Of a DNA stretch of 64,000 nucleotides, positions 20,894-55,716 are shown in pieces. The DNA lies in the NCBI GenBank assembly GCA_000092065.1, contig CP000589.1. One strand, given 5' to 3'. Source of the stretch: Ostreococcus lucimarinus. Lineage: Eukaryota. Below the pieces are notes generated by a model. That model saw nothing but the letters and a program-made list of their open reading frames with translations. It did not search any database and was not told the origin of the DNA. The position numbers were made by a program, and so were the translations under genes. Every line of letters starts with the position of its first letter. Position 1 is the first letter of the stretch.

Positions 20894-23800
20894 TCATTCG
20901 TTGTCGCGGGGATCCACGAGCTCGTACGATGCGTCCGCCTCTTCGTTGAGCATGCGATCGATTTCATCGAGACGCTCGGCGAGCGTTTCGTCTCCATCTT
21001 CGTCGCCCATCGGCGCCGACGGTTTTCCATCGAAATCGCATCCAGTATACGAGTCATTCAACCGGCAGTAATCGATGAGACTCCTCCAGTGCACGTCGTG
21101 GCTCAAGATGTGAGGATTACCCACGATGATCAAGAGTGACATTGCGCGCGTCACGGCAACGTTGAATCGCTTTGGATTCGCCATGAAACCGAGGCGATGG
21201 CGAGCGTCAAACTTCAAATGGGCAGTGTCGCTGCGAACGGTTGATAAGATGACTACGCTAAACTCTTGTCCTTGCAAGAGTTCAGTCGAACCCACGGTGA
21301 CTCCAGAAATCTTTTTCGCTTCGAGGTGTTTCATCATCTTCAGTTTTTGCTTGTGATACGGTGTACAGATGGCGATGTCTTTGGCTGTCAAACCCGTGTT
21401 CTTTCGGTCCAAAATTTTCGTGATCCACGAGCTCACTCGAAGTATCTCGTCGGGATTAAACCAAGATGGCGAATTCGCCTCTCGGAGTTCTTCGCCCATG
21501 ACACCGTCGAAAACGACTGGAAACGATGGATTCGGAAGCTCTTCCCATCCCTTGAAAATGTTCGTCCGCATGGGATCGGCGCAACATTCCAGCCTGTCAA
21601 AGTAGAATAACTTCGACGGAATTTCGATGATGCACGCGTGCGAGCGATAATTTTTCGTGAGCATGCACACTTTACTTGGCTCAAACGTACCGTCCGCGCG
21701 AACGCTATACGGAGTCTCAGTGTACGGCGCCGGAGGTAAGCACAGACGCTCGAGCATACTGACTTCCAAAGCTCTCGATTCCTTGGCTTGCACCAGCGGT
21801 CCCAGCTGTCGGGCGTCGCCGGCCAGAACCAGACGCCCTTTTTTTGGCTCTAATACGCTGACGATGGCGGTGAGAAGTTCGGGCTCCGATGCATGACCTG
21901 CTTCATCGATGATGACATTTTCAAAGCGACGCTCCGGCGATAAAATGAACACTTTCCTCGCTTTCCCTTTTCCGTACTCACCAGAGTCTCGAAACGTCCG
22001 CGTGAGTCTCTGCGCCGTAATCGGTGTCATGGCAACCACTCGAGCTCGCATGAATCTCTCAACAGTCGGCGGACAAAAAACGTTTGCAGTACTATCGTAG
22101 TTTGAGACGTCTAAGAGCTTCGATGGCACCTGATCGGGCATTCGAGAGAAATTGTAGACGCGATACGCTTCGCTCTTTGGAACGCCACCGTGCTCGATGA
22201 CGCGTGAGATGAACAAGTCACACGCCGCGTTACTTGGAGCCATCAACAAGACTCTTCCGCCAGTTTTATACATCTGCGCCGCTATCTCCACGACAGTAGT
22301 CGTCTTACCAGTACCAGGAGGTCCAAAAATGATGAATGGAGATTGTGAACGCGGCGCCATCGCGTTCGCAACTGCGAGCTTTTGTTCCTCGTTTAAGCGC
22401 CGATTCAACATTTTCAGATCTGATCTGCCAGTCGCGTCTACGTCGAGATCGTCGCCAAACTTTGGAAGCAAAAATGACTCATACGACGAAGATTTCAGAG
22501 AGTCTTTAATCGCGCCATGCATGAGTTCTATCGCGGTGCGCGACACTTCAAACGACACGTCAGCCTTGACCCCATTGATGTATGCTTTCGTGAAACCAGG
22601 ATGGAATCGGCACACGATGTGCTCAGCTTCCACGAATTCAACTTTCCCTCGAAATGAGCTTTTAGCCGTGGACAAATCGACGATGATCGAGTCGCCACGA
22701 AGCACCGATGGACGAGCTTCAGCGAGGCCTGGGACGAAAAGTCTATACATGGCTTTGGAATTGGTCTGCGAGAGCGCGACGTTGTGCATATCGTACAATC
22801 TCACGTTTTTGGTCGCCTGCACTTCTTCCATCATGAGCAGCTGACGAAAGAACTGAGCGTAATTCGTCTTCGAGAGATACTTTTGTCCGGTTTCTAGCAT
22901 TTCAGTAACAGAAGATGCCTGTGGTTCCTCGCCGTCGAGCGCTTTCCGAATGTCAGCCATGGGAACGGAAAGCGGAGCCGGCCAGAAGAACTTTGTCTTC
23001 GCGTTTAAAACCTCTTTCGAAGGGCCTGGATCGACGACTTTCTTCGACCCCTTCACCAAACTCGAATTTTTCTGCTGTTTCGGATACGCGAACGCGCTCG
23101 TCGGCCCGAGCGCGATTCGTTCCGCGCTCTCCTGCGCGCTTTCCCTCGCTCGAAGACGCAGCACGAGCACCGAGAGCGTAATCTCGCCCGACTCGACGTC
23201 GTCTTGATACGTTCGATACGAGAAGACGAGTGAAACGTCGTGCACCCCCGCCTTCAAATCCTTCGCCCAATCATCTCTCAAACACACGGCGTTCTCCACC
23301 TCCAGCATTCCTCCCTCCTTCACCTCTCCCTCGAACGTTTTCAGCGTCGGCTCCTCCAACACGCGATCGCCCAAATCGTCTCGGGCGAGCCCGAACGCGC
23401 CGAACAAAACCGTCACCTTCTCCCCCGCATCGATCGGCAATTTCAGCACCACCGACGCGCTTTTCAAATCCGACGCCGACGAGATCTTTCGCGGCACCAG
23501 CGTCTCCTTCGGCGTCGCCTCCGCGCCCGCCTCCGCGCTTCGTCGAAACGTCGCCGCTCGATGTTTCGCGCCGCGCTCGTGCTCCTCTCGTCCGCACGCC
23601 GGCACGTCCACGTCGCACACGTCGCATCGATACGCCCCTAACAGCGCGTCTCGCGCGTCTCTCGCGTTCGAGCGGTGCGCCCTCGTGCGCTCGTGCTCGA
23701 ACCGCGCGCGCGCGGGCATCGACGCATCGCACGCGACGCATCGCCAGGTCAACGAGTCGCGCGTCCGCAGCTTGGCGCGATGCCGCGCGCCGCGCTCGTG

Positions 23801-23938
23801 CGTCGGCATCAAGCGCGCGGGAACGTCGCAATCGCACACTTCGCATCGCGTCGGCGCGCGCGCGCCGTCGACGGGCATGACGCGCGCGCGCGGCGCGATG
23901 TGACGAGTCTCGGAGATCGACGCGACGAGGGGTGCCAT
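20894..23938 (-). CDS. MOV10/SDE3/Armitage-like SF1 RNA helicase with three N-terminal C2H2 zinc fingers
   Basis: Helicase motifs: IIFGPPGTGKTTT, VIIDEAGHASEPE, LVLAGDARQLGP, LTKNYRSH, ICTPYHKQ, GQEFSVVILSTVRS, NVAVTRA. Three C-x2-C-x11-H-x5-H fingers lie at nt 23561-23845. The track start 24067 is GTG; the first ATG is at 23938. Confidence 0.85.
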   Translation of the reverse strand: MAPLVASISETRHIAPRARVMPVDGARAPTRCEVCDCDVPARLMPTHERGARHRAKLRTRDSLTWRCVACDASMPARARFEHERTRAHRSNARDARDALLGAYRCDVCDVDVPACGREEHERGAKHRAATFRRSAEAGAEATPKETLVPRKISSASDLKSASVVLKLPIDAGEKVTVLFGAFGLARDDLGDRVLEEPTLKTFEGEVKEGGMLEVENAVCLRDDWAKDLKAGVHDVSLVFSYRTYQDDVESGEITLSVLVLRLRARESAQESAERIALGPTSAFAYPKQQKNSSLVKGSKKVVDPGPSKEVLNAKTKFFWPAPLSVPMADIRKALDGEEPQASSVTEMLETGQKYLSKTNYAQFFRQLLMMEEVQATKNVRLYDMHNVALSQTNSKAMYRLFVPGLAEARPSVLRGDSIIVDLSTAKSSFRGKVEFVEAEHIVCRFHPGFTKAYINGVKADVSFEVSRTAIELMHGAIKDSLKSSSYESFLLPKFGDDLDVDATGRSDLKMLNRRLNEEQKLAVANAMAPRSQSPFIIFGPPGTGKTTTVVEIAAQMYKTGGRVLLMAPSNAACDLFISRVIEHGGVPKSEAYRVYNFSRMPDQVPSKLLDVSNYDSTANVFCPPTVERFMRARVVAMTPITAQRLTRTFRDSGEYGKGKARKVFILSPERRFENVIIDEAGHASEPELLTAIVSVLEPKKGRLVLAGDARQLGPLVQAKESRALEVSMLERLCLPPAPYTETPYSVRADGTFEPSKVCMLTKNYRSHACIIEIPSKLFYFDRLECCADPMRTNIFKGWEELPNPSFPVVFDGVMGEELREANSPSWFNPDEILRVSSWITKILDRKNTGLTAKDIAICTPYHKQKLKMMKHLEAKKISGVTVGSTELLQGQEFSVVILSTVRSDTAHLKFDARHRLGFMANPKRFNVAVTRAMSLLIIVGNPHILSHDVHWRSLIDYCRLNDSYTGCDFDGKPSAPMGDEDGDETLAERLDEIDRMLNEEADASYELVDPRDNE

Positions 23939-24022
23939 GTTTTTTTGACGCGACGGGACTGGACGCGTCGACGCGACGAGGGGTGCCGTGGTTTTTCGAC
24001 GACGCGACGGGACTGGACGCGC
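23918..24022. repeat. tandem duplication, 2 x ~51-54 bp, spanning the helicase start codon
   Basis: Copy 1 is cgacgcgacgaggggtgccatgtttttttgacgcgacgggactggacgcg. Copy 2 is cgacgcgacgaggggtgccgtggtttttcgacgacgcgacgggactggacgcg. Only copy 1 carries the ATG (catggcacc on the minus strand). Confidence 0.8.
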
Positions 24023-24038
24023 GCGTCGAGACGAGCGC

Positions 24039-24176
24039 GGGAGAGAAGAGAAAATTGCGTCGATCACACGAAGGAAGCGCGCGCGCGCCGGGTGCTCGAG
24101 ACGCGAGCGAAGCGACGCGCGCTCAACCGAGGGCGGTTAAACCGCTGGTGCCGAGCGTCTCGAGCTTTTCGAACGC
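24039..24176. repeat. direct repeat copy A (138 bp), partner of 27355..27463
   Basis: 24056-24087 equals 27370-27401 (32/32 nt) and 24115-24176 equals 27402-27463 (62/62 nt). Copy A has a 27-nt insert (24088-24114). The left ends are degenerate (gggagagaagagaaaat versus gggagaagagaagag). Confidence 0.9.
24123..24176 (-). pseudogene. orphan duplicate of the last 17 codons plus stop of the APX gene
   Basis: The minus strand reads gcg ttc gaa aag ctc gag acg ctc ggc acc agc ggt tta acc gcc ctc ggt tga (AFEKLETLGTSGLTALG*). This is identical to APX 27410-27463, but here it lies 3.3 kb from any peroxidase body. Confidence 0.8.
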
Positions 24177-24249
24177 TTTTCGAACGATGGTAGATTTCCC
24201 GGTACGAGCCAGACCCTTGACGTAAAACACGACGTCCCAACCGTCATGA

Positions 24250-26874
24250 TTAAGAAAACGCGAGTAGATTTTCAACGGTCACACGGCGCGTCTTGACAAT
24301 CGCCAACAACTCAACTGAAGCGATGGACACCAAAAGGAAGAAAAACGCGGCGTTACCACCCGCTTGAGACAAAACTTGAAGCGGAGGTAGCTTGTACTTC
24401 CGTGTACACGAGTATGGGAAATTTTCTTTAGTCCAGGCACACATTCGATCGCGACCGATTTCATCAAAAATTGTGCGGAACGTGTTCAAGACGAGCGCGT
24501 CATTTCGATCCATCACTGCCGTATAGCTCACCGCGATGCCGCCCGCTTTATATTCATCTGTTGTGAGTATCAAGGAGCCATGTACTGTTCCGCTGATGTG
24601 GTTGGTAAAATTGGTTTGCTGATTTTGAAAAAAGGTGTCGAAAGTAGCGTTCACCGTGCCCATCATATTTGCGTAGTACTTGTATGAAGGACCAAATCTG
24701 CCCCACGGACGGAGGTAAGCCGATGGCTGCCGCCCATAATCCGCGTCACTATAGCTCAATATCCCTTGGCCAGGTCCAAATGAAGGCGTGGACTGCTCAA
24801 GCTCGCTTAAACCCGAGTTCGTCAGCGATGGTTCTTCGATTTTGGCTAAACATTCATCGTATGTCCAATTCTTGCCATACCAGATAGCGTCCTTCAATGG
24901 ACGACACGTGAAACCTTCCTTTTCGAGGACATTTTCTACCACCGTTTCCGTAAACTCCTGAGTCGCGTAAAACTGCAGGAGCAACGCAAATACAATCAAA
25001 GAGGCTGCCCCGAGAACAAAGCACACTAAAAGTGTGCGTATAGGTGACATGACGAGGTCCAGATCGGTCACTCGGAACCACTTGTCCTCCATCGGTAAAC
25101 GTGCCTTCCAGCCCAGAGGATTGCTCGCGGGGAGGCGCTTGATTATGATGGCCACTATCCACATGAGGCTTGCGGCGATGAACTGAGCGTTACCATATGA
25201 GAGAGAGAGGCGCGTGAGTGTATCGGGCGGGCCTGACTTTTTGCACTCGTACGGCGAGTTTTCCTTCGTGAAAAGGCACACCTCGTCGCCTGCGACATCC
25301 ATCATGGCTTTCCACACCTCGACTGCATCCGCCTTGAGTGCGTCTGTCCATGAGTTGGAAGGTGCATTGATTAGAATACGAGTCGACTGGGGTTTTCCTC
25401 CAACGAGAAACGAAGCCGGATCTTCCCAGTGATCGAGATCGGTCGTCGCGCTGTATTGAGTCAGCGTAGCGTTTGGGCGTTCTTTGCCCCAAAACGCTTG
25501 CGATGAAACGCCTTCTTTGGATGCATTAAACGGAACATATTTCGCTTTGATTGGGACCGGATTCGGCATGTTCAATGGATCGCCCTGCCAGGATTCGAAA
25601 TTAATATTATCCACCGTGATGTCCTGTAAAGCAGCCTTGCAGTCGTCGAACGTATATCGCACACCGTAACCGAGGTTGTCTGTCGTCAACGGCGTGCAGT
25701 TGTATCCAGGCATTGCCCAAGAACCTGTGATTTGAATATCGGTGATGTACTGCGAAGTCGACGAAAAGTACTGGTAAAACCATGCAAACGTTCCTACACC
25801 GACGGCACAGATGGTAAGCGAAAAGAAACCAACGACCAGCGTGTTCGACACGAATTCGAGCGGCTCCTCGTCGTAAAATTCGGGAGGAAAAGATAACTTT
25901 TCAATCCAGGTTTTCTCATTGGTAGCCTTTGGAGCTTTGCGGAAAAAGCCTATGAAGGTGGGTAAAGTAGCAAGGAACACGGTGATCACGAGCCCAGCAT
26001 TATTATTCGACAGACCAATCATTTCTAAAGCAGTCATTCTTTTCGACTTCAAACACTTGTACGGCAAGTTGTGCTTGGTGAATTCGCACACGTCGCCTCC
26101 ATTGACGTATTCAATCGTCTTGCTGAACAACTGCAAGAAATGAGCCGCGCTGGTGTTAAAAGTCTCGCAATCGCCGACGATTCCATTGGTGCTGCCACCT
26201 CCGGAACGCCTGATTTGGCCCGCGTTGCACGTCGCGCCAGACGGGTTTGGGTACTGCCTGCAGTCGCCGTTGTTTACAACTTGATTGATGTATGTTTCAA
26301 TTTCTGGCGTACGTGATTCCGGAAGCTTTGGCCAAATACCTCGATGGGCTTGAACACTACCGAACGGATTGTAATACACCGAATTCTTCACCGAGCAGTT
26401 ATAGGGTATAGTGCCCCCGTTACTATAGTCAGTACGTGTCAGGTAACCTCCAGCGGCGATAGCCTCTGCATTGGCGATATCAAAGCCAATTGCACTCTCT
26501 GTCAATGGCACTATCTTCGTTAAACACTCTTCGTACGTATAGTTTAACCCGTAAAATTCATCCGGGCTCAACGGCGCGCAGTCGTAGCCAGCGATCGCCG
26601 TGGAGTCGCTGATGATCGTATCCGTCACCCAGCGCGCTTCGTCCGCGTAGTAAAACAACGACCCGATGAATGCCAAGGTAGCGAGCGTGTGCATCGTCAC
26701 CGCCCCGCCGTAGGCCATCCACACTGGTCCTTTGAATTCGAGATACCGCTCGCGCGCCCAATAAATTTCAGGTACTGGAAGTCTTCGTATGAATCGCTCG
26801 ACGGAGCCCCTCGCCTTGCGCGCGCGCTGCTTGATCGACGAGGGCGCCGGGGCCGATGCCGACGCGTGCGTCAT
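24250..26874 (-). CDS. six-TM membrane glycoprotein made of three tandem TM-Cys-ectodomain-TM modules; family not recognised
   Basis: The track start 26904 is TTG; ATG at 26874 (MTHASASAP). Modules span about nt 26793-25939, 25938-25138 and 25137-24253. First shared motif: GYDCAPLSPDEFYGLNYTYEECLTKI / GYNCTPLTTDNLGYGVRYTFDDCKAAL / GFTCRPLKDAIWYGKNWTYDECLAKI. Second shared motif: GDVCEFTKHNLPYKC / DEVCLFTKENSPYEC / DRMCAWTKENFPYSC. Each module is flanked by hydrophobic helices, and there are many N-x-S/T sites. Confidence 0.75.
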   Translation of the reverse strand: MTHASASAPAPSSIKQRARKARGSVERFIRRLPVPEIYWARERYLEFKGPVWMAYGGAVTMHTLATLAFIGSLFYYADEARWVTDTIISDSTAIAGYDCAPLSPDEFYGLNYTYEECLTKIVPLTESAIGFDIANAEAIAAGGYLTRTDYSNGGTIPYNCSVKNSVYYNPFGSVQAHRGIWPKLPESRTPEIETYINQVVNNGDCRQYPNPSGATCNAGQIRRSGGGSTNGIVGDCETFNTSAAHFLQLFSKTIEYVNGGDVCEFTKHNLPYKCLKSKRMTALEMIGLSNNNAGLVITVFLATLPTFIGFFRKAPKATNEKTWIEKLSFPPEFYDEEPLEFVSNTLVVGFFSLTICAVGVGTFAWFYQYFSSTSQYITDIQITGSWAMPGYNCTPLTTDNLGYGVRYTFDDCKAALQDITVDNINFESWQGDPLNMPNPVPIKAKYVPFNASKEGVSSQAFWGKERPNATLTQYSATTDLDHWEDPASFLVGGKPQSTRILINAPSNSWTDALKADAVEVWKAMMDVAGDEVCLFTKENSPYECKKSGPPDTLTRLSLSYGNAQFIAASLMWIVAIIIKRLPASNPLGWKARLPMEDKWFRVTDLDLVMSPIRTLLVCFVLGAASLIVFALLLQFYATQEFTETVVENVLEKEGFTCRPLKDAIWYGKNWTYDECLAKIEEPSLTNSGLSELEQSTPSFGPGQGILSYSDADYGRQPSAYLRPWGRFGPSYKYYANMMGTVNATFDTFFQNQQTNFTNHISGTVHGSLILTTDEYKAGGIAVSYTAVMDRNDALVLNTFRTIFDEIGRDRMCAWTKENFPYSCTRKYKLPPLQVLSQAGGNAAFFFLLVSIASVELLAIVKTRRVTVENLLAFS

Positions 26875-27354
26875 GATGAACGACGGGCTTCCGCGCGCGG
26901 GCAATTTTGCGATGACCGTGCTCTCCGATCTGACGTGTCGACGTAATTACCCTAACGACTCCTCACTCGGTCCCCCCTAATTGAATGCGAATGGAGAGGA
27001 AGTGACTAACATATAATGTGGTTTTTAGAGGTATCATATCAGTATCGAGCCCTGGCTCAAGGGCACGCTGGACTGAGTTACCGTGCGCAATGATACATTA
27101 ATTGCATTACTAGGGATTTCGAAAATAATGTATGAGGGTAAAATAGTGAATTTAATTAACCTAGAGACGTCTTGTCGCGCCGGCGCGCGCCACTTCGCGC
27201 CGCGCGCGCGTCCGGGCGGCGCGGAGTCAACCGATGTTTCCGTGTATCGTGATATCCGACCGTTTAAGTTTGAATTCCACGCGTGGGTGTTGACGGAAGA
27301 CGACCGTTGGAGCTCGATGGGCACGTTAACTTTTGGGCCAGATTCTGTCGCGAC

Positions 27355-27463
27355 GGGAGAAGAGAAGAGTGCGTCGATCACACGAAGGAAGCGCGCGCGC
27401 GACGCGCGCTCAACCGAGGGCGGTTAAACCGCTGGTGCCGAGCGTCTCGAGCTTTTCGAACGC
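27355..27463. repeat. direct repeat copy B (109 bp), partner of 24039..24176; overlaps the genuine APX 3' end
   Basis: See copy A. Copy B contains the true APX stop (27410-27412), the last 17 codons and about 55 nt of 3' flank. Confidence 0.9.
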
Positions 27464-28477
27464 GGCGGCGAAGTCTTCGAAGAAAACCTTCTGACTCTTG
27501 GCGTAGACGTCGACGTACTTCTTGAAGTCGGCGTCTTCGATGAGCGCGATGTCGCTCGGAAGCATCATCAAGTTGCCGCTCGGGTCTTTGTATTGGAACT
27601 TTTTGGCGTCCGGATTCGGCTCCCACTTCAAGCCTTTGAGGAGGACGAAGTAGGAGTTGTTGAACAGCAACGGCGTCCCGCTCCACGGTCCGACGTAACC
27701 GGACGCGTCGGCGTGACAACGACCGAGGGCGTGGGCGCCGCTCAACGCGACGATTTCTCGATCGTCGAAACCCATGCGGTAGAAGACGTCGCGCAAGCCT
27801 TGCCTCGTCTTCGGTCCAGGGCCGTCGCCCTTGTCGGCGTCGGGCAAGCGCCCGTCGGGGGTGACCGCCTCGGGATCCATCTCGTCGACGCGACCGTACG
27901 AAAACTTCAACTTCGGCCCGCCCATCTCTTCGATCGCCACGACGCCGACGAACGCGATGAGATCGGCCCACGATACGTCCGGGTGCCGCTTCTTGATCGG
28001 CTCGAGCTTCGCGATCGCCTTATCCAGTCCCGCGTTCCCGCCGTGCGCGAGTTCCTCTTTAAACCGAATCGTCCCGCCGCCGCTCCCACCAGTCTTGCCC
28101 ATCCGGTCGTACGTCCCGGACGAGTGCCACGCGAGTCGCACGAGCGTCGGCCCGAAGTCCGCGTCGGCGCGCGTCAGCTCGACCGCGTCCCGTCGAACCG
28201 ACGCGAAGCGTTCCTCCGCCGTCGCCGCGCGCGCGGGCGCGACGTCGAACGCCGCGAAGAGCGCCGGCGCGAGCGCGATCGACGCGAGCGCGCGTCGTCG
28301 CGGCGTCGATGAATCGGATGGCGATTCGTCCGAAACGACGTTTCGGACGACCGTCGCGCGCGGACGCGGACGCGTCGCCGCGCGCGTCGCGCGAGCGCGC
28401 GTCGAAGCCGACCCGATCGCCGCGCCGAGCTTCGCGCGCGCCGTCGTCGTCGTCGTCGTCGTCGTCGTCGCGCGCAT
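27410..28477 (-). CDS. APX: class I haem peroxidase (ascorbate peroxidase-like) with chloroplast transit plus Tat-type lumenal signal
   Basis: Distal site LVRLAWHSSGTYD; proximal site IVALSGAHALGRCH; also GPWSGTPLLFNNSYF. The first ATG is at 28477 (MRATTTTTTTTTARAKLG), followed by PRRRALASIALAPALFAAFDVAPARA. The track start 28672 is GTG. Confidence 0.85.
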   Translation of the reverse strand: MRATTTTTTTTTARAKLGAAIGSASTRARATRAATRPRPRATVVRNVVSDESPSDSSTPRRRALASIALAPALFAAFDVAPARAATAEERFASVRRDAVELTRADADFGPTLVRLAWHSSGTYDRMGKTGGSGGGTIRFKEELAHGGNAGLDKAIAKLEPIKKRHPDVSWADLIAFVGVVAIEEMGGPKLKFSYGRVDEMDPEAVTPDGRLPDADKGDGPGPKTRQGLRDVFYRMGFDDREIVALSGAHALGRCHADASGYVGPWSGTPLLFNNSYFVLLKGLKWEPNPDAKKFQYKDPSGNLMMLPSDIALIEDADFKKYVDVYAKSQKVFFEDFAAAFEKLETLGTSGLTALG

Positions 28478-48071: not shown

Positions 48072-49103
48072 ATGTCCGCGTCGCCCGCGTCGCTCGTCGC
48101 TCTCGCGCGTCGCGTCGCGCAGTGGCGCGCCGTCGACGATGACGCGCGTGGCGGCGGCGTCGTCGCGCGCGCGAATCCCAAGGCGTCGCGCCGCGCGCGC
48201 CAGCGGAGAGAACCGAACGAAAGCCACCCCAAACGCAAGTACACGATCGAGGAGCGTTTGAAGCACAAGGGCGTGGACGTCGAGCGGGCGCGGATGGGCG
48301 GCGCGCGGGACCGGGACGACGCCGGCGGCGGGGCGGCGTCGAGCGCGGCGGTTTCGACGAGTGGAGACGTCCCGAAGGGCGAAGACGTGTGCGAACGCGT
48401 GGCGGAGTTGGCGTTCAGGCAAGACGCCGAGGGGTGGCCGGCGCAAAAGACGGAGGCGTGGGCGTTCGCGCGGGCGAGCGCGTTGACGGCGAGCGACGTC
48501 GGGCGAGTGTTGAGCGGCGACGGCGCGAAAGTCTTGATGCGCAAACAGCGCACGCGAGCCGCGGAGCAGGCGTTAGAGCGCGACCGTGCGACTTCGGCTT
48601 TGGTGCGAGAGGTAACAGAGGCGCCGGTGGCGACGGGGTCGTCGAAAAAGGAAAGGAAAGGGAAGGGCGGAGGTACGTCTCCCGCGATTCGACACGGTAA
48701 CGAATTTGAATCCGAAGCCTTGGCGCACTACGAAGCCGTATTGGGGACAAAGTGCCTGGAATTCGGACTCAAAATACATGACGTGCACTACTGGCTCGGC
48801 GCTTCGCCCGATGGCGTGCATCCCAGCGGTCGCATCGTCGAGATAAAATGTCCGTACTCTCGACCAATCATCGCGCGTCGGCGCGCGATGGAGCACTATG
48901 CCCAAATTCAAACCTTGTTGGAAGTCTTCGACCTCGATTATTGCGACTTTGTGCAGTACAAGCCCGCGGGACGCGGCAAAGGCCGTTCGGGCGACCCTGA
49001 CGCTCCGGAATTCCTCTGCGAAACCATCGCTCGAGACGCCGAGTGGTGGTCGACGCACTTCGACGAGCTCCAAACTTTCGCCGCGAGCCTTCCTTCGCCC
49101 TAG
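48072..49103 (+). CDS. YqaJ-type (lambda-exonuclease-fold, PD-(D/E)XK) nuclease-domain protein
   Basis: ATG at 48072. Motifs: RASALTASDVGRVLS, IRHGNEFESEALAHYE, WLGASPDGVHPSGRIVEIKCPYS, YAQIQTLLEVFDLDYCDFVQY. Confidence 0.7.
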   Translation: MSASPASLVALARRVAQWRAVDDDARGGGVVARANPKASRRARQRREPNESHPKRKYTIEERLKHKGVDVERARMGGARDRDDAGGGAASSAAVSTSGDVPKGEDVCERVAELAFRQDAEGWPAQKTEAWAFARASALTASDVGRVLSGDGAKVLMRKQRTRAAEQALERDRATSALVREVTEAPVATGSSKKERKGKGGGTSPAIRHGNEFESEALAHYEAVLGTKCLEFGLKIHDVHYWLGASPDGVHPSGRIVEIKCPYSRPIIARRRAMEHYAQIQTLLEVFDLDYCDFVQYKPAGRGKGRSGDPDAPEFLCETIARDAEWWSTHFDELQTFAASLPSP

Positions 49104-49302
49104 CGCGCTGTGCACGCATGTAAACATTTATTGGTTTCTCGCCGCACTCCGGACGTCGAGCGCGCTCGTCGACGCGCGCGCATTCATCCGCGCGTCGTCG
49201 CGCGCGCAAAAATTTGAAATTTCCCACAGCTCGAGCCGTCCCGTCGTGCCCATCGCGCCGTCGCCAAACCGCGCCTCGCGCCCGGGGCGTCATCCGCTCG
49301 CC

Positions 49303-52300
49303 ATGGATTGGGCGTGTCTAAACGACGCCTCGCAACCCCCCGACGACGTCGAACGCCTCGCGCGTCGCACGGCGGAGGCGGAAGAGTCGCGATTGATTTC
49401 CTCGTACGAACACGCCGTGCGGAGAGCCGCGTCCGGAAACGCGCACGAAGCGATCGAGAGCCTGCGCGCGGTGCTCGCGCACGCGCTGACGAATCGCGAG
49501 GACGTCTCCGCGCGATTGCTCCGGGTGAAGTTTCTGTCGCTGAAAAATCTCGGGCGATTGCTGGATGAACGCGGGACGGCGGCGAGCGAAGACGACGAGG
49601 CGGCGCGAACGGATCGAGAGGAGGCGGTGCGGTGCTACGCGAGCGCGGTAGAGATAGACGACACGGATGCGTTGGTGTGGGGAAGATTGGGACGCGCGGC
49701 GGTGGCGGTGGGCTCGATGGCGGTGGCGAGGATGGCTTACGAGAGAGCGGTGAGCGCGAGCCCGCGGAATCAGCTGTTTTTGGAAGACTTGAGCGAAGTG
49801 TGCCTGAGCGCGGGGGATTTTGAAACAGCCAAGGCGTTGGCCGGGGCGGTGATGGAGATTGACCCTGGAAATGCGCGCGCGCGAGCGATGAAACGCGCGC
49901 CGGAGGCGCTGGAACCGACTCGGGCGATGAAGGTGGCGAGAGAAAGAGCGGCGTCGGCGGCGTCGACGAGGGATGAGGGAGAAATCGCGATTCGGTTGAG
50001 CGCGGACATGGACAAGAATTGGGGGGTGATAACCGCATTATTAGCGCGCCTCGGTGGTGCTCCGACTCCGGAATCGATCACGAGGAGCGGCAAAGCGAAG
50101 GATGCCGCTGAGCCCGAGACGCCCGCTGAGGCGGAGAATGCCGACGCACCGGCTACACCGACGCAGTCAAAAGAGGTGGACGTGGTGCCAGGATCGGCAA
50201 CGGCAGACGACGAGGATGTTTCGGAAGATGATGTGATTTCTTCTTCATTCGCAAAGTATATGCGCCACGTGCGAGACGTCCACATCCCGAGAGATGTGAT
50301 AGGGAGAAAGGTTCGATTCGTGTTTGATTCGCCGTCTTCGATGCCGATGGAATTAGGAACGACTGATGTCGTCGATCTGACGGACAAAGACGTTTTGACA
50401 CAACCATCTGTGGACACGCCATCTACATCCCAGCCGGTGAGCGAAGTGAGTGCAAGCCAAGCCAACAAAACGCCCTCCAAGGCGGCTGCAAAGGCCAAGG
50501 CGGCTGCAAAGGCGCAGAAAGATGTCGCTACAATTCGGAAATCGCGACGTCAACTGGAATTAGACGAGAAAAAAGCGCTCGAAGACGAAAAGATGCGCAT
50601 TATCGCCGAACAGGAAGCCATTCAAAAAGCGCTAGAAAAGGAGGAGAAGAGAAAAGCTGCCGAGGCAAAGGAATGGAAACCGGAATCGAACATCTCTCGC
50701 GCTCTGTTGAATTTGATAGGCGCTGAAGACCCAGTCGTGTCAGCGGTAAAAAAAGCAACTACCGACGTCGCGGGTGCCAGAGATCGTGCGAATACCATCA
50801 AAAAGCAACATCAGAGAGAATTGAAGGAGGCAGCTGCGAAGAGGGCGAAAGAGGAGCGTGAAATGAAGACGCATAAGCGAGTTTCTTCATTCGTTAACGC
50901 CATTGACGATGTGCATGCAGGCGCCGCGCACATCGCTTGGCGATTCTTATCTACAACAGCTGCTCGCTGGCGACCGGACACTGAAGATGATTGCTCGCCA
51001 CCTCCTTGGTCGATCATTTACCTGTATCACATCTTTGGCGTTGGACAGGGAGACGAGCTCGCGCCCGTGGCGCGAATATTGTTGTGCATCGCTGACACCG
51101 CAATTCTTGCGGCGCGCGAATGTGCGCTTGGACATCCGGGGCGCACGTACTTCAGAAACATGGCAGTCGGGTTGTTAGACGAGGTATCTTTAGTGATGAA
51201 CCGTGATCCGAAACAAGACTTTCACGCAGAGAGCCTGTTCTTACGTCATAAGCTTGTGGATCTAGATGGCGAAGATCGAAGTGTGAGCATGTTCTACCTT
51301 GAACGGGCGCAAGAAGTTGCTCCGGATGATGCAGATCTCCCGCCGGCACCTGCCTCAATCGAAGATGCCGCACCCGCACGTTTCAGTAAGCAGTCATTAC
51401 GTGCCGCGATGGACGCAATGAAGGTGAAGGAAGTTGTCATTGGCGCCGCGGCGAGATTTGCCAAGGGGCAGACTACCGAAGTAGTATCAACGTTGACACC
51501 TCTACTCTTACCCGATGAAGATCAGGAAGAATCGACCGATAATTTGGACGCGCTTTGCTTGACGCAATCAGAAAAGCAAAATGCACTTAAGGTGCTCGCG
51601 GCGGCGGCGAAAAGGCAAGGTCCATCGTGTGTCGTTATTCAGATAAAAGCTCTCAAGATGGCTTACGACTTGGACGTAACGAAACATCACTCGATGCTGA
51701 GACTCATCGCTGAGGCACTGGAATCCACCGACCGCGCACACACAAAGCAAGCGCTCGAAGTCGTTGAATCTATGGGATTAGCGGCGATCGCGGCGTCGCT
51801 GTTTGAGGCGCATTACACCGAGTTCGCGATGGCACCTGGAGTGAAGAAGAAAAACAAAGCTTCGCGTTATGCTGCCGCAAGCTTGGAGGCTTCAGCACTA
51901 CTAATCTCCGCTATCCAGCGAGCTTCAAAGCCAAAAGATTTGGAACTCATTGAGTTGCATGAGAAACTTCATGATCGCCTCGCGGACTGTCGATGCTGTT
52001 GCGGCGACTATCGGAAAGGAGTGTTTCTGAAGTCGTCTCTTGTCCAGTTGGCCAAATGCAGAAATCGTATTACAAAGGCGCGAGATCAACGACACGCTAC
52101 TGAACCCACAAAAAAGCGGACAACGAAAGTCACCATCGAAAACCGTAGCAAGGACACTTCCGATAAGGTGAAAAGGAAAAAGAAGGTGGATGCGGATGAT
52201 GAGGGTGAATTCCGCCGACGTGTGCGTCGTCAGCGTAGCAGCATCAGTAGCATCGAAGACGACGATAGAACACCGCAAGACAAGGCTGATCGTAAACTTC

Positions 52301-55300
52301 TAGATCGGTTGGATAAACTCATAATCCAGCTGTGTCACTGCGTGTATGGATTTACATTGGATCAGCCCACTCGGAATTGCCGAGAAGAATATGGCGCATG
52401 TACGACCACACTTCATATTTCGAACGAAATGGAAGCCGCCAACCTTTGGTTGGCCATTCAACCTTACGCCATGGTGAACAAGGAAAGTATTCCCAGCGCC
52501 GTCATTGAGGAGATCCGCAAGAAAATATCCGATCCACCGAAGACCGAGCAAGCTACACTTATCGAGAAGTACTTGTCCACAGGCTCAGACGACCTTGCGT
52601 GCTCGTCTATCGCAAACTTTGGAGAGATAACCGAGCAAGATCGACAGCTCGCTCGAGAGCTAATCAGCACGCCGACCGCAGATGAAGTCATCGTTGCTCG
52701 ACAAGGAGGCTCGACTCCGAAGAACGGCCCCAGCGCGCCGCCGACTCCGGTTGTCACTACAGACGTCATGCATTATCTCACGAGTACTCCAACTACAGAC
52801 CGTGCGCTTCGCACCGTTCAATCCGATGAGAAAATTTCGTTGTTTGCGAGCTTTTACAAAACTTTCTTGCAATTTTGTGCAGACATGGACGTTGTTGCGC
52901 TCGAAACATTGCTCGAGGACGAACAAACAGATTATGATCAACTTCATGCGTTGCTTGGAAGTGTTGCATCGTCGACTCCCACGGCGCAGCAATCTGCTGT
53001 GGCGGCCAAGAGCGAGGAGGTGACGAAGCTGTACAAGTTTGACGTCGAGTACAATCCCACGCGCCCGCAAAGTTGGATCGCGCTGGCCGATCACCTGGAT
53101 AACATCAAAGATATCGTTCTTAACGATGCCGCCAAAATCTTGGCAGTCGGCACCTTCCGCGCGTCTCCAATGTTGACAATGCTTCAGTCGACGCAGCTGG
53201 CGATTCGACGGGCGTTGATTGCGGCGGAAGAGGCTTTAACAATGACTCATTATCCTGGACACCCGGAGACGGAGTGGGTGCGGTCACAAATTTACGAGCG
53301 CCTCGGCCAAACTGCGTACGAGCTCGTACAGGATGCTCCACCAATATACGACTCTCGCAAGTTTGCTTTGGTCAAAACTACTCCTACGTACGCATCCACG
53401 CTTGCGTTGTGCAAACAAGCGTTCACGAAAGCTTCCGAAGCTTATCCCGACAATTGGATATACCCCCACTACCTGGCGAAGATCGCGAAAAAAGATGGCC
53501 AACCTTTATCACACGTTCTCGAAACCCACGCACAGGCGCTCGCGATAAAGCCGGGCTGTTTGGAAGCAATCTATCAAGTGACGAATATTCGTTTGCACAT
53601 GCTCTTGTCCATCGAGGTTAGCGGAAGAAAGAAGATGACTCCAGAGTCACAAGCAATCACGCTTTGCGTACTCAAGCAACCGTTTAACCCAGGAGACATG
53701 CAAAATAGTTGGATCGGTGCATATCGAGATTGCATCGTAGCGTTGCTCTTCATCAACAAGAATTATCCCAAGTTCCACAAGGCGAGCTATCGTCTTGCGT
53801 GGGCTCGCTTGAAAAAGTCTCCGGGAGAACTCGGGCACTGTCAAAAAGCTTTGGAGTACCTGAACCCTCTATTCAAAAGTCCTCGGACTGGAACGTTCAA
53901 GATTTTCATGACTGAAATCGATGACACAAATTTGGGCATCAAGACTCCCGTGGAGACGGTCGACGGAAATATTGCGTATGAGTGCGGTATCAGCGAATCT
54001 CGACGACGCTTCATAGCGAACGTTCGCCGTACGCTTCGCTTGTACTTGACGTTGCTTTACACAAACGAGGACATGGGTACACTTGCGGCGGTAGTTTCTT
54101 ACATCACGGACTATTCCAAAACCGCCACGAAAACGCGTCTGCCAATCATCGCGAACTCACAAGACGTGCGCTTCTTTGCTTTCGGACTTTTGTTGCGAGC
54201 CCTTGCGGCAAGGCTCTCGGTTGTGGGTCGAAGAATTCAAGAATCATTGCAGAAAGAACAAGCGTCCATGCTCGCTGGAAAAGAAGGCGCGAATACAGAA
54301 GCGGGTACGCCACAAGCGGCGTCGGTCGCATCGACCAAACTAGATGTGTACCTCGAACAAGCGTACAATGTTTGGTTTGACTTCGCGGTTCCCGCTCGAG
54401 GAAATATGTTGTCTTGGGAGCAAAATGTCGACGAGGCTTTCACACAACTTGAAGTCGAGGAAAGCCGCACCGACGAAGGCCCTGATCTCGTCAAGGAACC
54501 TTACAAGACGGCGTTCAGTAGCGCGAGCAAGTTCACGAAGTCATCACCAGAGATGAATTTCGAACAGTACGCTCTCGAGTGCATAACCGACTTGGAAGCC
54601 AAATCTGACTTGAATACGCTCGCCGCACGGCTATCCCTCTGTCAAAAACGTTTCAGGGAAATCGAACCTGAAGCCGACGCGCAAGTGAAAGAATCAGGCA
54701 TGAATCGTTTGAAGATTCTTGGTAACGCGTTGAAGGATGCGTTCATCAGATGCTCTGCGCCGACGATTGAACTCTTGGCAAAAGGGGAAATCAAGTTATG
54801 CCCGGGTGGTTTAGAAAACGTCGAAGAAGAGACCTCGAAGAAGGACAACGATGCTGTCGTCGACGAAGCGAAAGAAGGTACCGAGGCTGTGAATTCGCCG
54901 CAAAAGTCTACGCCAACCAACTTCACCGAAATCGTCCTCGTCACTGCGCGGCGTCTTCATGTGGTAACGAAGACAGAATCTACGGCACGACTGTACGAGT
55001 TCGCTGTCCAACGACGCAATTCATTGCAAGCTCTGATCGATGCGATTGATTCTGGTAGCACACCAACGGACATGGAAGACCCGAGCGTGCCTGTCGTCGC
55101 TAAACTTCACGCGGAAGTCACCAAGCTAACGGCAAAAATTGCCGAGCTGAAAACAAAGCACAGCAATTTGGTCGAAAGCGCGCTCGTCGCCGAAGGCCAG
55201 ACGACCGATCCAGAACAACTAAAGCTCGTCAAGGAAACGTACGAGGAGCTCACCACTACGATTGTTCGATGTGAGAAACTCAAGGCGGATCACGCCTGTG

Positions 55301-55571
55301 AAGTGGTCAATTACCGCAAAGAGACGAGCCAGCTCGCGGATGAAATGGGCAAGCGCGACATTGGCAACGCTGATTCGACAGAATACATCCTGCGCGTGAT
55401 GAGCGCCGTGCTCCAACGTGAAGTGACCGATATCGATGAAGCCGAACGCGAAGCCGAAATCGCCATCGGAGAGCTGAGAAGGTTGCGTTCGGACGTCGCG
55501 AAAACGAAACGCGCGAAAGTCAGTCGCGGTCGCTCAAAAAAATCCGCGGCGACAAACGCGACGGAAGCCGT

Positions 55572-55609
<38 letters not shown>

Positions 55610-55716
55610 TCGAACCTCGCCAAGAGCTCGAGCCCCCTCGGCCCGAGCCCGAGCCCACCTCTGACGTCACCATGCTCGTCGCCGACGCCGTCGCCGACGC
55701 CGTAGCCGACGTCTGA
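49303..55716 (+). CDS. giant TPR protein, CABIN1/HIR3-like (HIRA histone-chaperone complex subunit)
   Basis: The in-frame ATG is at 49303 (MDWACLNDAS); the track start 48898 overlaps the previous gene. N-terminal TPRs: YEHAVRRAASGNAHEAIESLRAVLAH..LLRVKFLSLKNLGRLL..AVRCYASAVEIDDTDALVWGRLGRAAV. About 2137 aa with a C-terminal (AD)n tract. Confidence 0.65.

What the first reader, a model, noticed from the sequence alone, without database searches (positions are those of the whole stretch)
20894..23938. MOV10/SDE3-type helicase fused to three U1/JAZ-spaced C2H2 zinc fingers
The SF1 core carries the full UPF1/MOV10 motif set. In front of it sit three fingers with identical spacing C-x2-C-x11-H-x5-H (CEVC..HERGARH, CVAC..HERTRAH, CDVC..HERGAKH; nt 23561-23845). 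That spacing class is associated with RNA/dsRNA-binding C2H2 fingers. MOV10/SDE3/Armitage helicases normally work with Argonaute pathways. To my knowledge Ostreococcus-type picoalgae were reported to lack Argonaute/Dicer. If that holds here, this would be an RNAi-independent, possibly antiviral or anti-retroelement RNA helicase. The gene also sits immediately next to the rearrangement described at 24039-27463.
Basis: partly seen in the sequence, partly recalled or inferred. Interest (0 to 1): 0.5.

Follow-up and report, generated by a model that had tools for sequence, protein, structure and literature searches.

The report
MOV10-type RNA helicase with zinc fingers
This is an intact gene of the green picoalga Ostreococcus lucimarinus for a MOV10-family RNA helicase with three small U1-like zinc fingers at its front end. 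That design also occurs in fungal and animal relatives, so it is an ordinary family member, notable mainly because this alga is reported to lack Argonaute and Dicer.

Summary
ORF 20894..23938 (-) encodes a 1014-aa protein. It has three C-x2-C-x11-H-x5-H fingers (nt 23561-23845), a MOV-10 beta-barrel (Pfam PF21634, 67.7 bits) and an intact SF1 helicase core.

It belongs with MOV10/SDE3, not UPF1:
- 425 bits against lamprey MOV-10, versus 137 bits against a UPF1-type protein.
- The NJ split has 86/100 bootstrap support.
- The nearest named relatives are called 'helicase MOV-10' or 'SDE3'.

The fingers are of the U1/matrin/JAZ kind. The window's own fingers stay below Pfam thresholds. O. tauri finger 2 passes zf-U1, and collinear fungal fingers pass zf-met and zf-C2H2_jaz.

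The fusion is not a peculiarity of this alga. Of the 154 nearest relatives, 47 carry at least one such finger upstream of the helicase. Basidiomycete proteins have three fingers collinear with these, and invertebrate MOV-10s have one.

The window is O. lucimarinus CCE9901, which is reported to lack Dicer and Argonaute (PMC4014436). An Argonaute-independent role is therefore plausible. MOV10 already has known Argonaute-independent roles (UPF1-linked decay, retroelement restriction). No antiviral role was testable.

Verdict: a new member of a known kind, of modest interest.

The parts
20894..23938 (-). Complete intron-less CDS (1014 aa plus stop) of the zinc-finger MOV10-family helicase.
   Evidence: It aligns full-length and co-linearly with orthologues from O. 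tauri (54% identity) and a third Ostreococcus-like species (55%). The AF2 model has pLDDT 85.8 and pTM 0.81.
23780..23845 (-). Zinc finger 1 (aa 32-53, CEVCDCDVPARLMPTHERGARH).
   Evidence: Regex match. Predicted beta-beta-alpha fold at E30-32, E37-39 and H41-49. The ligands are invariant.
23675..23740 (-). Zinc finger 2 (aa 67-88, CVACDASMPARARFEHERTRAH).
   Evidence: Supported. The orthologous O. tauri finger passes the Pfam zf-U1 threshold (24.1 bits against 22).
23561..23626 (-). Zinc finger 3 (aa 105-126, CDVCDVDVPACGREEHERGAKH).
   Evidence: Supported. It gives the window's best Pfam signals: zf-met 16.7 bits and zf-U1 14.4 bits, both sub-threshold. The x11 spacing is shared with the third finger of basidiomycete homologues.
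23153..23503 (-). Predicted beta-sandwich (aa 146-262), in the position that the Ig-like domain occupies in animal MOV-10.
   Evidence: AF2 predicts strands 146-262 with block-mean pLDDT about 54-82. There is no Pfam hit and no profile-profile similarity to the animal MOV-10 Ig-like domain. This is the fastest-evolving part of the protein, at 23-27% identity between Ostreococcus species.
22799..22921 (-). Helical segment (aa 340-380) preceding the barrel. It corresponds to the Mov-10 helical ('stalk') region.
   Evidence: AF2 predicts helices 340-353 and 360-380. A Mamiellophyceae orthologue, P0056, reaches the Pfam Mov-10_helical threshold (25.5 bits against 24.8). The region aligns to lamprey MOV-10 from aa 315 onwards.
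22550..22795 (-). MOV-10 beta-barrel (domain 1B), aa 382-463.
   Evidence: Pfam PF21634, E 6.1e-19, 67.7 bits against a threshold of 23.6.
21794..22396 (-). RecA1 (AAA_11), aa 515-715, with Walker A GPPGTGKT (aa 539-546, nt 22301-22324), DEAG (aa 678-681) and GDARQLGP (aa 707-714). It includes a Mamiellophyceae-specific insertion of about 12 aa around aa 650-668.
   Evidence: Pfam AAA_11 at 94.7 bits, invariant columns and the gap in the alignment to lamprey MOV-10.
21113..21679 (-). RecA2 (AAA_12), aa 754-942, carrying motifs IV to VI.
   Evidence: Pfam AAA_12 at 137.8 bits. It aligns with the UPF1 crystal-structure sequences. Foldseek's best PDB match is the UPF1 core, E 3.6e-33.
20897..21058 (-). 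Acidic C-terminal tail (aa 961-1014) ending in the family-conserved aromatic..R-[DE] motif.
   Evidence: R1011 is invariant in alignment A1. Similar ends (PWRAED, PWRDVE, FRDN) appear in animal, fungal and algal homologues.
23917..24021 (-). Tandem duplication of 51-54 nt spanning the start codon. The upstream copy has ACG where the downstream copy has ATG.
   Evidence: Repeat families D10 and D13 and the sequence itself.

Best explanation
The gene encodes the Ostreococcus lucimarinus orthologue of the MOV10/SDE3 family of UPF1-like SF1B helicases.

**Anatomy (shown)**
- A basic array of three U1/matrin/JAZ-like C2H2 fingers at the N-terminus.
- A fast-evolving beta-sandwich.
- A helical stalk and the MOV-10 beta-barrel (domain 1B).
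- Two RecA domains with every catalytic motif intact.
- An acidic tail with a family-conserved terminal motif.

**Mechanism (inferred from the family)**
- The RecA core binds single-stranded RNA and translocates 5'->3' using ATP. As it moves it unwinds secondary structure and strips proteins.
- The finger array gives the enzyme a second, ATP-independent hold on double-stranded or structured RNA, as U1C, ZMAT2 and JAZ-type fingers do. This recruits or anchors the helicase on structured substrates.
- The variable beta-sandwich probably mediates lineage-specific protein contacts.
- The host lacks Argonaute and Dicer. The enzyme must therefore act without a small-RNA guide, most plausibly as an mRNP-remodelling and RNA-clearance factor in cytoplasmic RNA decay or surveillance. 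Restriction of retroelement or viral RNA is a possible extra role.

The finger-plus-helicase design is inherited from the family's ancestor. It is not a new fusion.
For: **Family placement**
- Pfam gives MOV-10_beta-barrel at 67.7 bits, AAA_11 and AAA_12.
- A profile search of 1.84 billion proteins returns a top 150 all above 540 bits. The named ones are 'helicase MOV-10' (lamprey, hemichordate, crinoid) or 'RNA helicase SDE3' (sea cucumber).
- BLASTP gives 425 bits and 38% identity over aa 315-984 to lamprey MOV-10, against 137 bits to a UPF1-type protein.
- The NJ tree separates the MOV10-like set from the UPF1-type and other SF1 proteins with 86/100 bootstrap support.

**Activity plausibly intact**
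- The key helicase motif residues are invariant or at least 90% conserved.
- The RecA core is 70% identical to the O. tauri protein.

**Fingers**
- The pattern occurs three times and nowhere else in the window.
- The 12 ligands are invariant across algae and fungi and across the population variants.
- The fold is beta-beta-alpha at high pLDDT.
- Pfam signals come only from zf-U1, zf-met and zf-C2H2_jaz, apart from one weak Sgf11 match to an extra finger in P0003. O. tauri finger 2 is above threshold. Fungal homologue P0088 scores 42.5 bits for zf-met and 25.4 for jaz.
- A profile of the fingers finds ZMAT2 and U1C as its closest solved sequences.
- The best local structural match is U1C, at probability 0.95 and 1.9 A.
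- The finger region has 24 K+R against 16 D+E.

**Ancestral architecture**
- 47 of 154 nearest relatives have at least one such finger upstream of Walker A.
- The majority consensus of the 81-sequence alignment itself reads CxxC-x12-H-x5-H.
- BLASTP to the fungal protein runs the full length, including the fingers.

**Host lacks RNAi**
- The window is O. lucimarinus CCE9901.
- PMC4014436 and PMC9871001 report that O. lucimarinus and O. tauri lack Dicer and Argonaute.

**Argonaute-independent MOV10 roles are documented**
- These include 5'->3' translocation on 3'UTRs together with UPF1, binding of UPF2 and blocking of L1 reverse transcription (PMC8799784, PMC12305709).

**Orthology by position**
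- The downstream DUF1499 gene is conserved next to the helicase in three Ostreococcus species.
Against: - No biochemical, expression or genetic data exist for this protein or its orthologues. No paper mentions both Ostreococcus and MOV10.
- The window's own fingers are below every Pfam threshold.
- The Foldseek search with the finger model gave no statistically significant hit. The best E-value was 0.07, and most hits were DNA-binding C2H2 arrays.
- RNA binding, as opposed to DNA or protein binding, is therefore inferred from class resemblance only.
- The x11 spacing is one residue shorter than the canonical x12 of zf-met and JAZ fingers.
- The absence of Argonaute, Dicer and RdRP rests on the literature. 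It was not re-checked on the genome.
- The N-terminal domains typical of animal MOV-10 (MOV-10_N, Ig-like) are not detectable by sequence.
Confidence: 0.6

Rival explanations
1. The finger array is a regulatory and protein-docking module, not an RNA anchor. By analogy with the UPF1 CH domain or the human MOV10 N-terminal domain, it would fold back on the helicase core to modulate activity. It would then be released by a partner such as UPF2 or another decay factor.
For: - In UPF1, Sen1/SETX and human MOV10, the N-terminal extensions regulate the core and bind partners. The MOV10 N-terminal domain binds UPF2 MIF4G3 (PMC12305709).
- The full-length AF2 model has pTM 0.81, which suggests that the N-terminal modules pack in a defined way against the core.
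- Some U1-like fingers mediate protein contacts. RNF125 appears among the structural hits.
Against: - The finger class is best known for contacting RNA duplexes, as U1C, ZMAT2 and JAZ do.
- The array is net basic.
- No inter-domain confidence data (PAE) were available.
- No partner is known.
Confidence: 0.2
2. The protein acts on DNA or on RNA:DNA hybrids in the nucleus, for example in R-loop or retroelement cDNA control. The C2H2 fingers would bind DNA.
For: - SF1B UPF1-like helicases commonly unwind DNA as well as RNA in vitro. DNA2, IGHMBP2 and Sen1 are among the structural neighbours.
- Most Foldseek hits for the three-finger model are DNA-binding C2H2 arrays such as CTCF and ZBTB7A, although none is significant.
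Against: - H-x5-H spacing, long inter-finger linkers of 13-16 residues between successive finger motifs (35-38 residues start to start), and the lack of the TGEKP linker are untypical of DNA-reading C2H2 arrays. This is visible directly in the sequence.
- No match to the classical zf-C2H2 Pfam model was reported at E<=10.
- Characterised MOV10-family members act on RNA (PMC8799784).
Confidence: 0.1
3. The gene is an evolutionary leftover of a lost RNAi pathway. It would be drifting with little or no function.
For: - The host lacks Argonaute and Dicer.
- GC3 (0.65) is lower than in most neighbouring genes.
- The N-terminal modules diverge fast, at 23-47% identity between species.
Against: - The 1014-codon ORF is intact.
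- The key helicase motif residues and all 12 zinc ligands are conserved across at least four Mamiellophyceae lineages and in the wild-population variants.
- The RecA core is 70% identical to the O. tauri protein, higher than the neighbouring DUF1499 gene at 61%.
Confidence: 0.05

Closest known systems
Animal MOV10 (helicase MOV-10), including invertebrate and lamprey orthologues
   Same: - Same UPF1-like SF1B core, MOV-10 beta-barrel (1B) and helical stalk.
- 38% identity over about 700 aa to the lamprey protein.
- Same C-terminal aromatic-x-R-[DE] ending.
- Hemichordate and crinoid MOV-10s carry one JAZ/zf-met-like finger (C-x2-C-x11/12-H-x5-H) in the N-terminal region.
   Different: - Animal proteins start with the MOV-10_N domain and have a recognisable MOV-10 Ig-like domain. 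Neither is detectable here by sequence.
- The alga has three fingers instead of one or none. Human MOV10 is reported to lack zinc-finger motifs (PMC12305709).
- Animal MOV10 associates with AGO2, which this alga lacks.
Basidiomycete CCCH + U1-like-finger MOV10-like helicases (for example Auriscalpium vulgare KAI0048937.1, Clavulina KAF8320843.1)
   Same: - Full-length collinear alignment at 368 bits, including the fingers.
- Three C2H2 fingers whose 12 ligands align column for column with the algal ones.
- The third finger has the same x11 spacing.
- MOV-10 beta-barrel and helicase core.
   Different: - The fungal proteins have an additional N-terminal CCCH finger.
- Their first fingers have canonical x12 spacing and pass the Pfam zf-met and jaz thresholds.
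- Like the algal protein, they are functionally uncharacterised.
Arabidopsis SDE3 / Drosophila Armitage / mammalian MOV10L1
   Same: Same family by common annotation. The sea-cucumber relative is named 'RNA helicase SDE3', and PMC8799784 lists SDE3 as a MOV10 orthologue.
   Different: - These proteins work in siRNA amplification or piRNA biogenesis with Argonaute/Piwi proteins. No such partners are reported in Ostreococcus.
UPF1 (NMD helicase)
   Same: Same SF1B fold. It is the best solved-structure match (Foldseek E 3.6e-33; phmmer E 8e-31), with the same motif set and 1B/1C insertions.
   Different: - No UPF1 CH zinc-knuckle domain (PF09416) and no UPF1-type 1B domain (PF18141).
- Only 28% identity, restricted to the core.
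- It forms a separate branch in the tree.
U1-like / matrin / JAZ C2H2 zinc fingers (U1C, ZMAT2/Snu23, ZNF346/JAZ, zf-met proteins)
   Same: - C-x2-C ... H-x5-H ligand geometry.
- An aromatic residue before the first Cys.
- An H-x-x-G-x-[KR]-H helix signature.
- Beta-beta-alpha fold, with U1C as the best local structural match.
   Different: - The spacer is 11 residues instead of 12 to 14. It is 10 in O. tauri finger 3.
- The helix is Arg-rich with a conserved HERG motif.
- The window's fingers are sub-threshold for all three Pfam models.
- RNA binding is untested.

Membership tests
MOV10/SDE3/Armitage family (UPF1-like SF1B helicases) | Complete SF1 helicase motif set (I, Ia, II, III, IV, V, VI) in two RecA domains | tested here: met
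   Pfam gives AAA_11 at 94.7 bits and AAA_12 at 137.8 bits. The residues G539-K545, D678/E679, G707/D708/Q711/G713, Q889/G890/E892, R924/N926/R931 are invariant in an 81-sequence family alignment, and Y764/R765/H767 are at least 90% conserved.
MOV10/SDE3/Armitage family (UPF1-like SF1B helicases) | MOV-10-type beta-barrel (domain 1B; Pfam PF21634) in front of RecA1 | tested here: met
   aa 382-463, E 6.1e-19, 67.7 bits against a gathering score of 23.6. AF2 predicts strands at 384-464.
MOV10/SDE3/Armitage family (UPF1-like SF1B helicases) | Closer to named MOV10/SDE3 proteins than to UPF1 or other SF1B helicases | tested here: met
   BLASTP gives 425 bits to lamprey MOV-10 and 137 bits to a UPF1-type protein. 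The top hits of the exhaustive profile search are named MOV-10 or SDE3. The NJ bootstrap is 86/100. Caveat: the tree is distance-based, and reference SDE3, Armitage and HELZ sequences were not included.
MOV10/SDE3/Armitage family (UPF1-like SF1B helicases) | Mov-10 helical domain (PF21635) preceding the barrel | tested here: inconclusive
   No Pfam hit was reported for the window protein. The related P0056 reaches 25.5 bits against 24.8. AF2 predicts helices at 340-380 in the right place.
MOV10/SDE3/Armitage family (UPF1-like SF1B helicases) | MOV-10 N-terminal domain (PF21632) and Ig-like domain (PF21633), as in animal MOV10 | tested here: not met
   There is no Pfam hit at E<=10 on aa 1-379. 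hhalign of the algal aa 141-270 profile against the animal Ig-like profile gives probability 0.1%. A beta-sandwich is predicted at the equivalent position, so structural equivalence remains possible. These domains are also absent or weak in the fungal members, so they define the animal subgroup and not the whole family.
MOV10/SDE3/Armitage family (UPF1-like SF1B helicases) | Physical or functional coupling to an Argonaute/Piwi small-RNA pathway | not testable with these tools
   The literature states that O. lucimarinus and O. tauri lack Dicer and Argonaute (PMC4014436, PMC9871001). The whole genome could not be searched here.
MOV10/SDE3/Armitage family (UPF1-like SF1B helicases) | ATP-dependent 5'->3' RNA unwinding | not testable with these tools
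   This needs biochemistry. Only motif integrity could be checked.
U1-like / matrin / JAZ C2H2 zinc fingers (Pfam zf-U1 PF06220, zf-met PF12874, zf-C2H2_jaz PF12171) | C-x2-C ... H-x5(6)-H ligand pattern with a long spacer (canonically 12-14) | tested here: met
   There are three copies of C-x2-C-x11-H-x5-H. The spacer is one residue shorter than canonical. The same x11 occurs in the third finger of fungal homologues and in a crinoid MOV-10.
U1-like / matrin / JAZ C2H2 zinc fingers (Pfam zf-U1 PF06220, zf-met PF12874, zf-C2H2_jaz PF12171) | Score at or above the Pfam gathering threshold | tested here: not met
   **Window fingers.** zf-met scores 16.7 against 21.2, zf-U1 14.4 against 22 and jaz 13.3 against 22.6.

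**Homologous fingers that do pass.** O. tauri finger 2 scores 24.1 for zf-U1. Fungal P0088 scores 42.5 for zf-met and 25.4 for jaz.

Apart from one weak Sgf11 match to an extra finger in P0003, no other zinc-finger family gives any signal.
U1-like / matrin / JAZ C2H2 zinc fingers (Pfam zf-U1 PF06220, zf-met PF12874, zf-C2H2_jaz PF12171) | Beta-beta-alpha zinc-finger fold resembling U1C or JAZ | tested here: inconclusive
   AF2 predicts three beta-beta-alpha units at block-mean pLDDT 80-94 in the finger-only model. The Foldseek search has no hit with E<0.07. The best local match is U1C (4pjo_L, probability 0.95, rmsd 1.9 A over 41 columns).
U1-like / matrin / JAZ C2H2 zinc fingers (Pfam zf-U1 PF06220, zf-met PF12874, zf-C2H2_jaz PF12171) | Binding of double-stranded or structured RNA | not testable with these tools
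   This is inferred from class resemblance only.
UPF1 proper | N-terminal CH zinc-knuckle domain (PF09416) and UPF1-type 1B domain (PF18141) | tested here: not met
   Neither family is among the Pfam hits of the window protein. Both are precomputed for the separate UPF1-type protein P0006.

The most novel reading that the evidence does not exclude
MOV10-family helicases ancestrally carried an array of U1-like, duplex-RNA-binding zinc fingers. On this reading the ill-defined 'CH domain' of vertebrate MOV10 would be its eroded remnant. In Ostreococcus, which has lost Argonaute, Dicer and RdRP, the family survives as a guide-independent sensor and remodeller of structured RNA, for example transposon, viral or aberrant transcripts. 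That would make this alga a natural system for isolating the Argonaute-independent core function of MOV10/SDE3.
Probability: 0.3. Interest if true: 0.5.

Novelty: new member of a known kind. Interest (0 to 1): 0.3.

Why it matters
MOV10, SDE3 and Armitage are usually discussed as accessories of Argonaute/Piwi pathways. This is an intact, conserved family member in a minimal eukaryote that lacks those pathways, so the family's core job does not need a small-RNA guide.

O. tauri is genetically tractable, so its orthologue could be used to study that job in isolation.

The comparative result matters slightly more widely. U1-like fingers sit in front of MOV10-type helicases in algae, fungi, an amoebozoan and invertebrate animals. 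This suggests what the poorly understood N-terminal region of MOV10 originally was. No paper held in the library links MOV10 to this finger type.

None of this changes current understanding in a major way. The gene lies in a genome published in 2007, and its family is recognised by standard profiles.

Tried and rejected
- **Fingers as a chance pattern.** Rejected. Only 78 of 100,000 shuffles give one match, there are only three matches in the six-frame window, and the ligands are invariant.
- **UPF1 identity.** Rejected. There is no CH or UPF1-1B domain, and the score is 137 bits against 425 bits for MOV-10.
- **Sequence homology of the aa 146-262 sandwich to the animal MOV-10 Ig-like domain.** hhalign found nothing (probability 0.1%). 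The question is left open.
- **Foldseek of the three-finger model against the PDB.** No significant hit, only generic C2H2 arrays plus a good local U1C match.
- **Foldseek against afdb50.** The library was not available.
- **Second word-indexed protein search with the 81-sequence profile, to obtain named SDE3, Armitage or HELZ references.** It returned only 6 proteins and was uninformative. The tree therefore lacks those references.
- **Literature look-ups.** Cerutti & Casas-Mollano 2006 and Shabalina & Koonin 2008 are not held. No paper combines Ostreococcus with MOV10 or cites the O. tauri accession numbers. No expression data could be retrieved.
- **Whether the upstream neighbour in the third Ostreococcus-like species is the peroxidase.** It is not. 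Only the downstream DUF1499 synteny is conserved.
- **Compositional anomaly suggesting foreign origin.** GC3 is somewhat low (0.65) but within the range of other long genes in the window. The gene is syntenic in three species. Horizontal transfer was rejected.

Full report
**1. The observation**

The minus strand carries an uninterrupted ORF from 24067 to 20894. Its first ATG is at 23938, which gives 1014 aa plus a stop.

The pattern C-x2-C-x11-H-x5-H occurs at aa 32-53, 67-88 and 105-126, which is nt 23845 down to 23561.
- These are the only three matches in all six frames of the 64-kb window.
- Only 78 of 100,000 shuffles of the first 150 residues produce even one match.
- At the DNA level the three units are recognisable 57-nt repeats, 68-72% identical and spaced 114 and 105 nt apart.

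Pfam finds AAA_11, AAA_12 and, importantly, MOV-10_beta-barrel at aa 382-463 (E 6e-19, 67.7 bits against a threshold of 23.6). The SF1 motifs are all present. Most of their key residues are invariant columns in an 81-sequence family alignment, and the remainder are at least 90% conserved.

**2. Source organism and conservation**

Four neighbouring ORFs are identical to Ostreococcus lucimarinus CCE9901 proteins (XP_001419526.1, XP_001419521.1, XP_001419756.1, XP_001419745.1) on a 670,853-bp contig.

The exact helicase product is present only in metagenome and SRA-derived sources, not under an NCBI protein accession. The reference gene model may therefore differ or be missing.

Orthologues and population data:
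- O. tauri (XP_022839118.1 / OUS47729.1) is 54% identical.
- A third Ostreococcus-like lineage is 55% identical.
- Further Mamiellophyceae-like proteins are 47% and 44% identical.
- The cluster at 90% identity holds 383 environmental sequences.
- The downstream DUF1499 gene is syntenic in three species.

Divergence between species is strongly modular:

| Region | Identity between Ostreococcus species |
|---|---|
| RecA core | 70% |
| Barrel/stalk | 51-52% |
| Finger array | 47-48% |
| aa 128-265 region | 23-27% |

**3. Which helicase family**

- An exhaustive profile search of 1.84 billion representative proteins gave 7,980 hits below 1e-30. The top 150 all scored above 540 bits.
- The named ones are 'helicase MOV-10' (lamprey, hemichordate, crinoid), 'putative RNA helicase SDE3' (sea cucumber), an amoebozoan transcript and basidiomycete proteins. 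JGI calls the Mamiellophyceae-like orthologue cluster 'helicase MOV-10'.
- BLASTP gives 425 bits and 38% identity over aa 315-984 to lamprey MOV-10, against 137 bits and 28% (core only) to a UPF1-type protein that carries the UPF1 CH and 1B Pfam domains.
- A Kimura-distance NJ tree of the core separates the 24 MOV10-like sequences, including the window protein, from the UPF1-type and other SF1 proteins in 86 of 100 bootstraps. The six Mamiellophyceae-like sequences are monophyletic in 100 of 100.
- No MOV10 structure is in the PDB copy. The best solved match is the UPF1 core.

One caveat applies. Reference SDE3, Armitage and HELZ sequences could not be obtained, and one search failed to retrieve them.

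**4. The fingers**

The window's own fingers are below every Pfam threshold: zf-met 16.7 bits against 21.2, zf-U1 14.4 against 22 and zf-C2H2_jaz 13.3 against 22.6.

Across 13 Mamiellophyceae fingers, the Pfam families that respond are zf-U1, zf-met and zf-C2H2_jaz, apart from one weak Sgf11 match to an extra finger in P0003. O. tauri finger 2 passes zf-U1 at 24.1 bits.

Further evidence for the class:
- A profile of ten fingers finds ZMAT2 and U1C among its best solved sequences, weakly (E 0.07-0.4).
- AlphaFold2 gives a confident full-length model (pLDDT 85.8, pTM 0.81) with three beta-beta-alpha units. A finger-only model has pLDDT 87.5.
- Foldseek with the finger model has no significant hit. 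Its best local match is U1C in the minimal U1 snRNP (probability 0.95, 1.9 A over 41 columns).
- The sequence shows the class hallmarks directly. There is an aromatic residue before Cys1, an H-x-x-G-x-[KR]-H helix and H-x5-H spacing, and no TGEKP-type linkers.

The U1/matrin/JAZ assignment is therefore reasonable. It rests on homologues and resemblance, not on a threshold-passing match of the window sequence. RNA binding is untested.

**5. The architecture is not special to this alga**

Of the 154 nearest relatives, 47 carry at least one C-x2-C-x10-14-H-x5-6-H upstream of Walker A. The majority consensus of the 81-sequence alignment itself shows C-x2-C-x12-H-x5-H.

- Basidiomycete homologues have a CCCH finger followed by three such fingers. 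Their 12 ligands align column for column with the algal ones, and their third finger shares the x11 spacing.
- One of them scores 42.5 bits for zf-met and 25.4 for jaz, and aligns to the window protein over its full length.
- Hemichordate MOV-10 has the order MOV-10_N, one JAZ-like finger, Ig-like, helical, barrel, helicase.

At least one U1-like finger is thus probably ancestral to the family. Human MOV10 is described as lacking zinc-finger motifs, with an undefined 'CH domain' (PMC12305709, PMC8799784). No held paper links MOV10 to this finger type.

**6. The rest of the N-terminus**

AF2 predicts a beta-sandwich at aa 146-262 and helices at aa 340-380 before the barrel. The sandwich occupies the position of the animal Ig-like domain, but neither Pfam nor hhalign detects similarity. 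It is the fastest-evolving part, which fits a lineage-specific interaction surface.

**7. How it most likely works**

*Shown:* an intact MOV10-type SF1B motor, three conserved zinc-finger units of the U1-like class, a net basic finger region (24 K+R against 16 D+E), and conservation across species and wild populations.

*Inferred from the family:*
- The motor translocates 5'->3' on RNA and removes structure and proteins.
- The fingers give a second hold on duplex or structured RNA.
- O. lucimarinus and O. tauri are reported to lack Dicer and Argonaute (PMC4014436, PMC9871001). The enzyme would therefore act without small-RNA guides.
- The most plausible setting is RNA decay and surveillance, like MOV10's UPF1-linked role.
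- Retroelement or viral RNA restriction is a possible addition.

*Rivals:* the fingers are a regulatory or protein-docking module; the protein has a DNA or R-loop role; the gene is a decaying relic. The relic idea is contradicted by the conservation data.

**8. Surroundings**

The gene's 5' flank is unusual.
- A tandem duplication of 51-54 nt spans the ATG (23917-24021).
- The segment 24043-24176 repeats 27357-27463, the end of the peroxidase gene and its downstream sequence. Together the two copies flank the 874-aa gene.
- The same arrangement is on an independent metagenome contig.
- O. tauri and the third species have a different upstream neighbour.

Nothing connects this to the helicase's function.

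**9. Verdict**

The family and finger class are right, and the absence of RNAi is supported by the literature.
- The 'fusion' is an inherited, widespread architecture. Argonaute-independent MOV10 functions are already known. The defence role is speculation.
- This is a new member of a known kind, with interest 0.3.

Noticed in passing
window 24043-24176 and 27357-27463: Direct repeats (65 nt at 100% and 55 nt at 91%) flank the 874-aa ORF at 24250..26874 (-), which is XP_001419745.1. The copy next to the helicase holds a relic of the last ~20 codons and the stop of the peroxidase-like gene (27410..28477 -). The ~3.3-kb block looks like an insertion with a duplication of more than 100 bp at its target. 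The same arrangement is on metagenome contig L001.
   Followed up: partly
window 23917-24021: A tandem duplication of 51-54 nt spans the helicase start codon. The upstream copy reads ACG where the downstream copy has ATG.
   Followed up: no
window 20894-23938: The exact 1014-aa product is found only in Logan, ENA and JGI metagenome sources. It is not under an NCBI accession, although four neighbouring genes match O. lucimarinus CCE9901 RefSeq proteins exactly. The reference annotation may lack this gene model or model it differently.
   Followed up: partly
window 20894-26874: The helicase gene (GC3 0.65) and the adjacent 874-aa gene (GC3 0.59) have lower third-position GC than most neighbours (0.70-0.84). 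The 2272-aa ORF at 48898..55716 is similarly low (0.59).
   Followed up: no
window 24250-26874 (-): The 874-aa predicted protein appears to consist of three internal repeats. Each ends in a similar motif (..FTKHNLPYKC.., ..FTKENSPYECKKS.., ..WTKENFPYSCTRK..) followed by a hydrophobic stretch. It has no Pfam annotation on the metagenome contig.
   Followed up: no
window 21935-22006 (aa ~645-668 of the helicase): There is a Mamiellophyceae-specific insertion of about 12 aa in RecA1 (GKGKARKVFILSPER) relative to animal MOV-10. AF2 predicts it as a beta-hairpin.
   Followed up: no
window 20897-20950 (C-terminus of the helicase); P0060, P0088, P0105, P0200: An acidic tail ending in an aromatic-x(3-4)-R-[DE] motif (SYELVDPRDNE here; PWRAED, PWRDVE and FRDN elsewhere) is conserved from algae to animals and fungi. 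It is possibly a docking motif.
   Followed up: no
P0088, P0092, P0128, P0152, P0157, P0172 (fungal relatives): These MOV10-like proteins, two of which are confirmed basidiomycete (Auriscalpium, Clavulina), combine an N-terminal CCCH finger with one to three U1-like C2H2 fingers. The three-finger arrays of P0088, P0152 and P0172 are collinear with the algal three. The architecture is uncharacterised.
   Followed up: partly
L003 1266-4364; P0055: The third Ostreococcus-like lineage has a fourth finger upstream (CAPCARDVTAHSWAAHCASAEH). O. tauri finger 3 has an x10 spacer. Finger number and spacing therefore vary within the genus.
   Followed up: no
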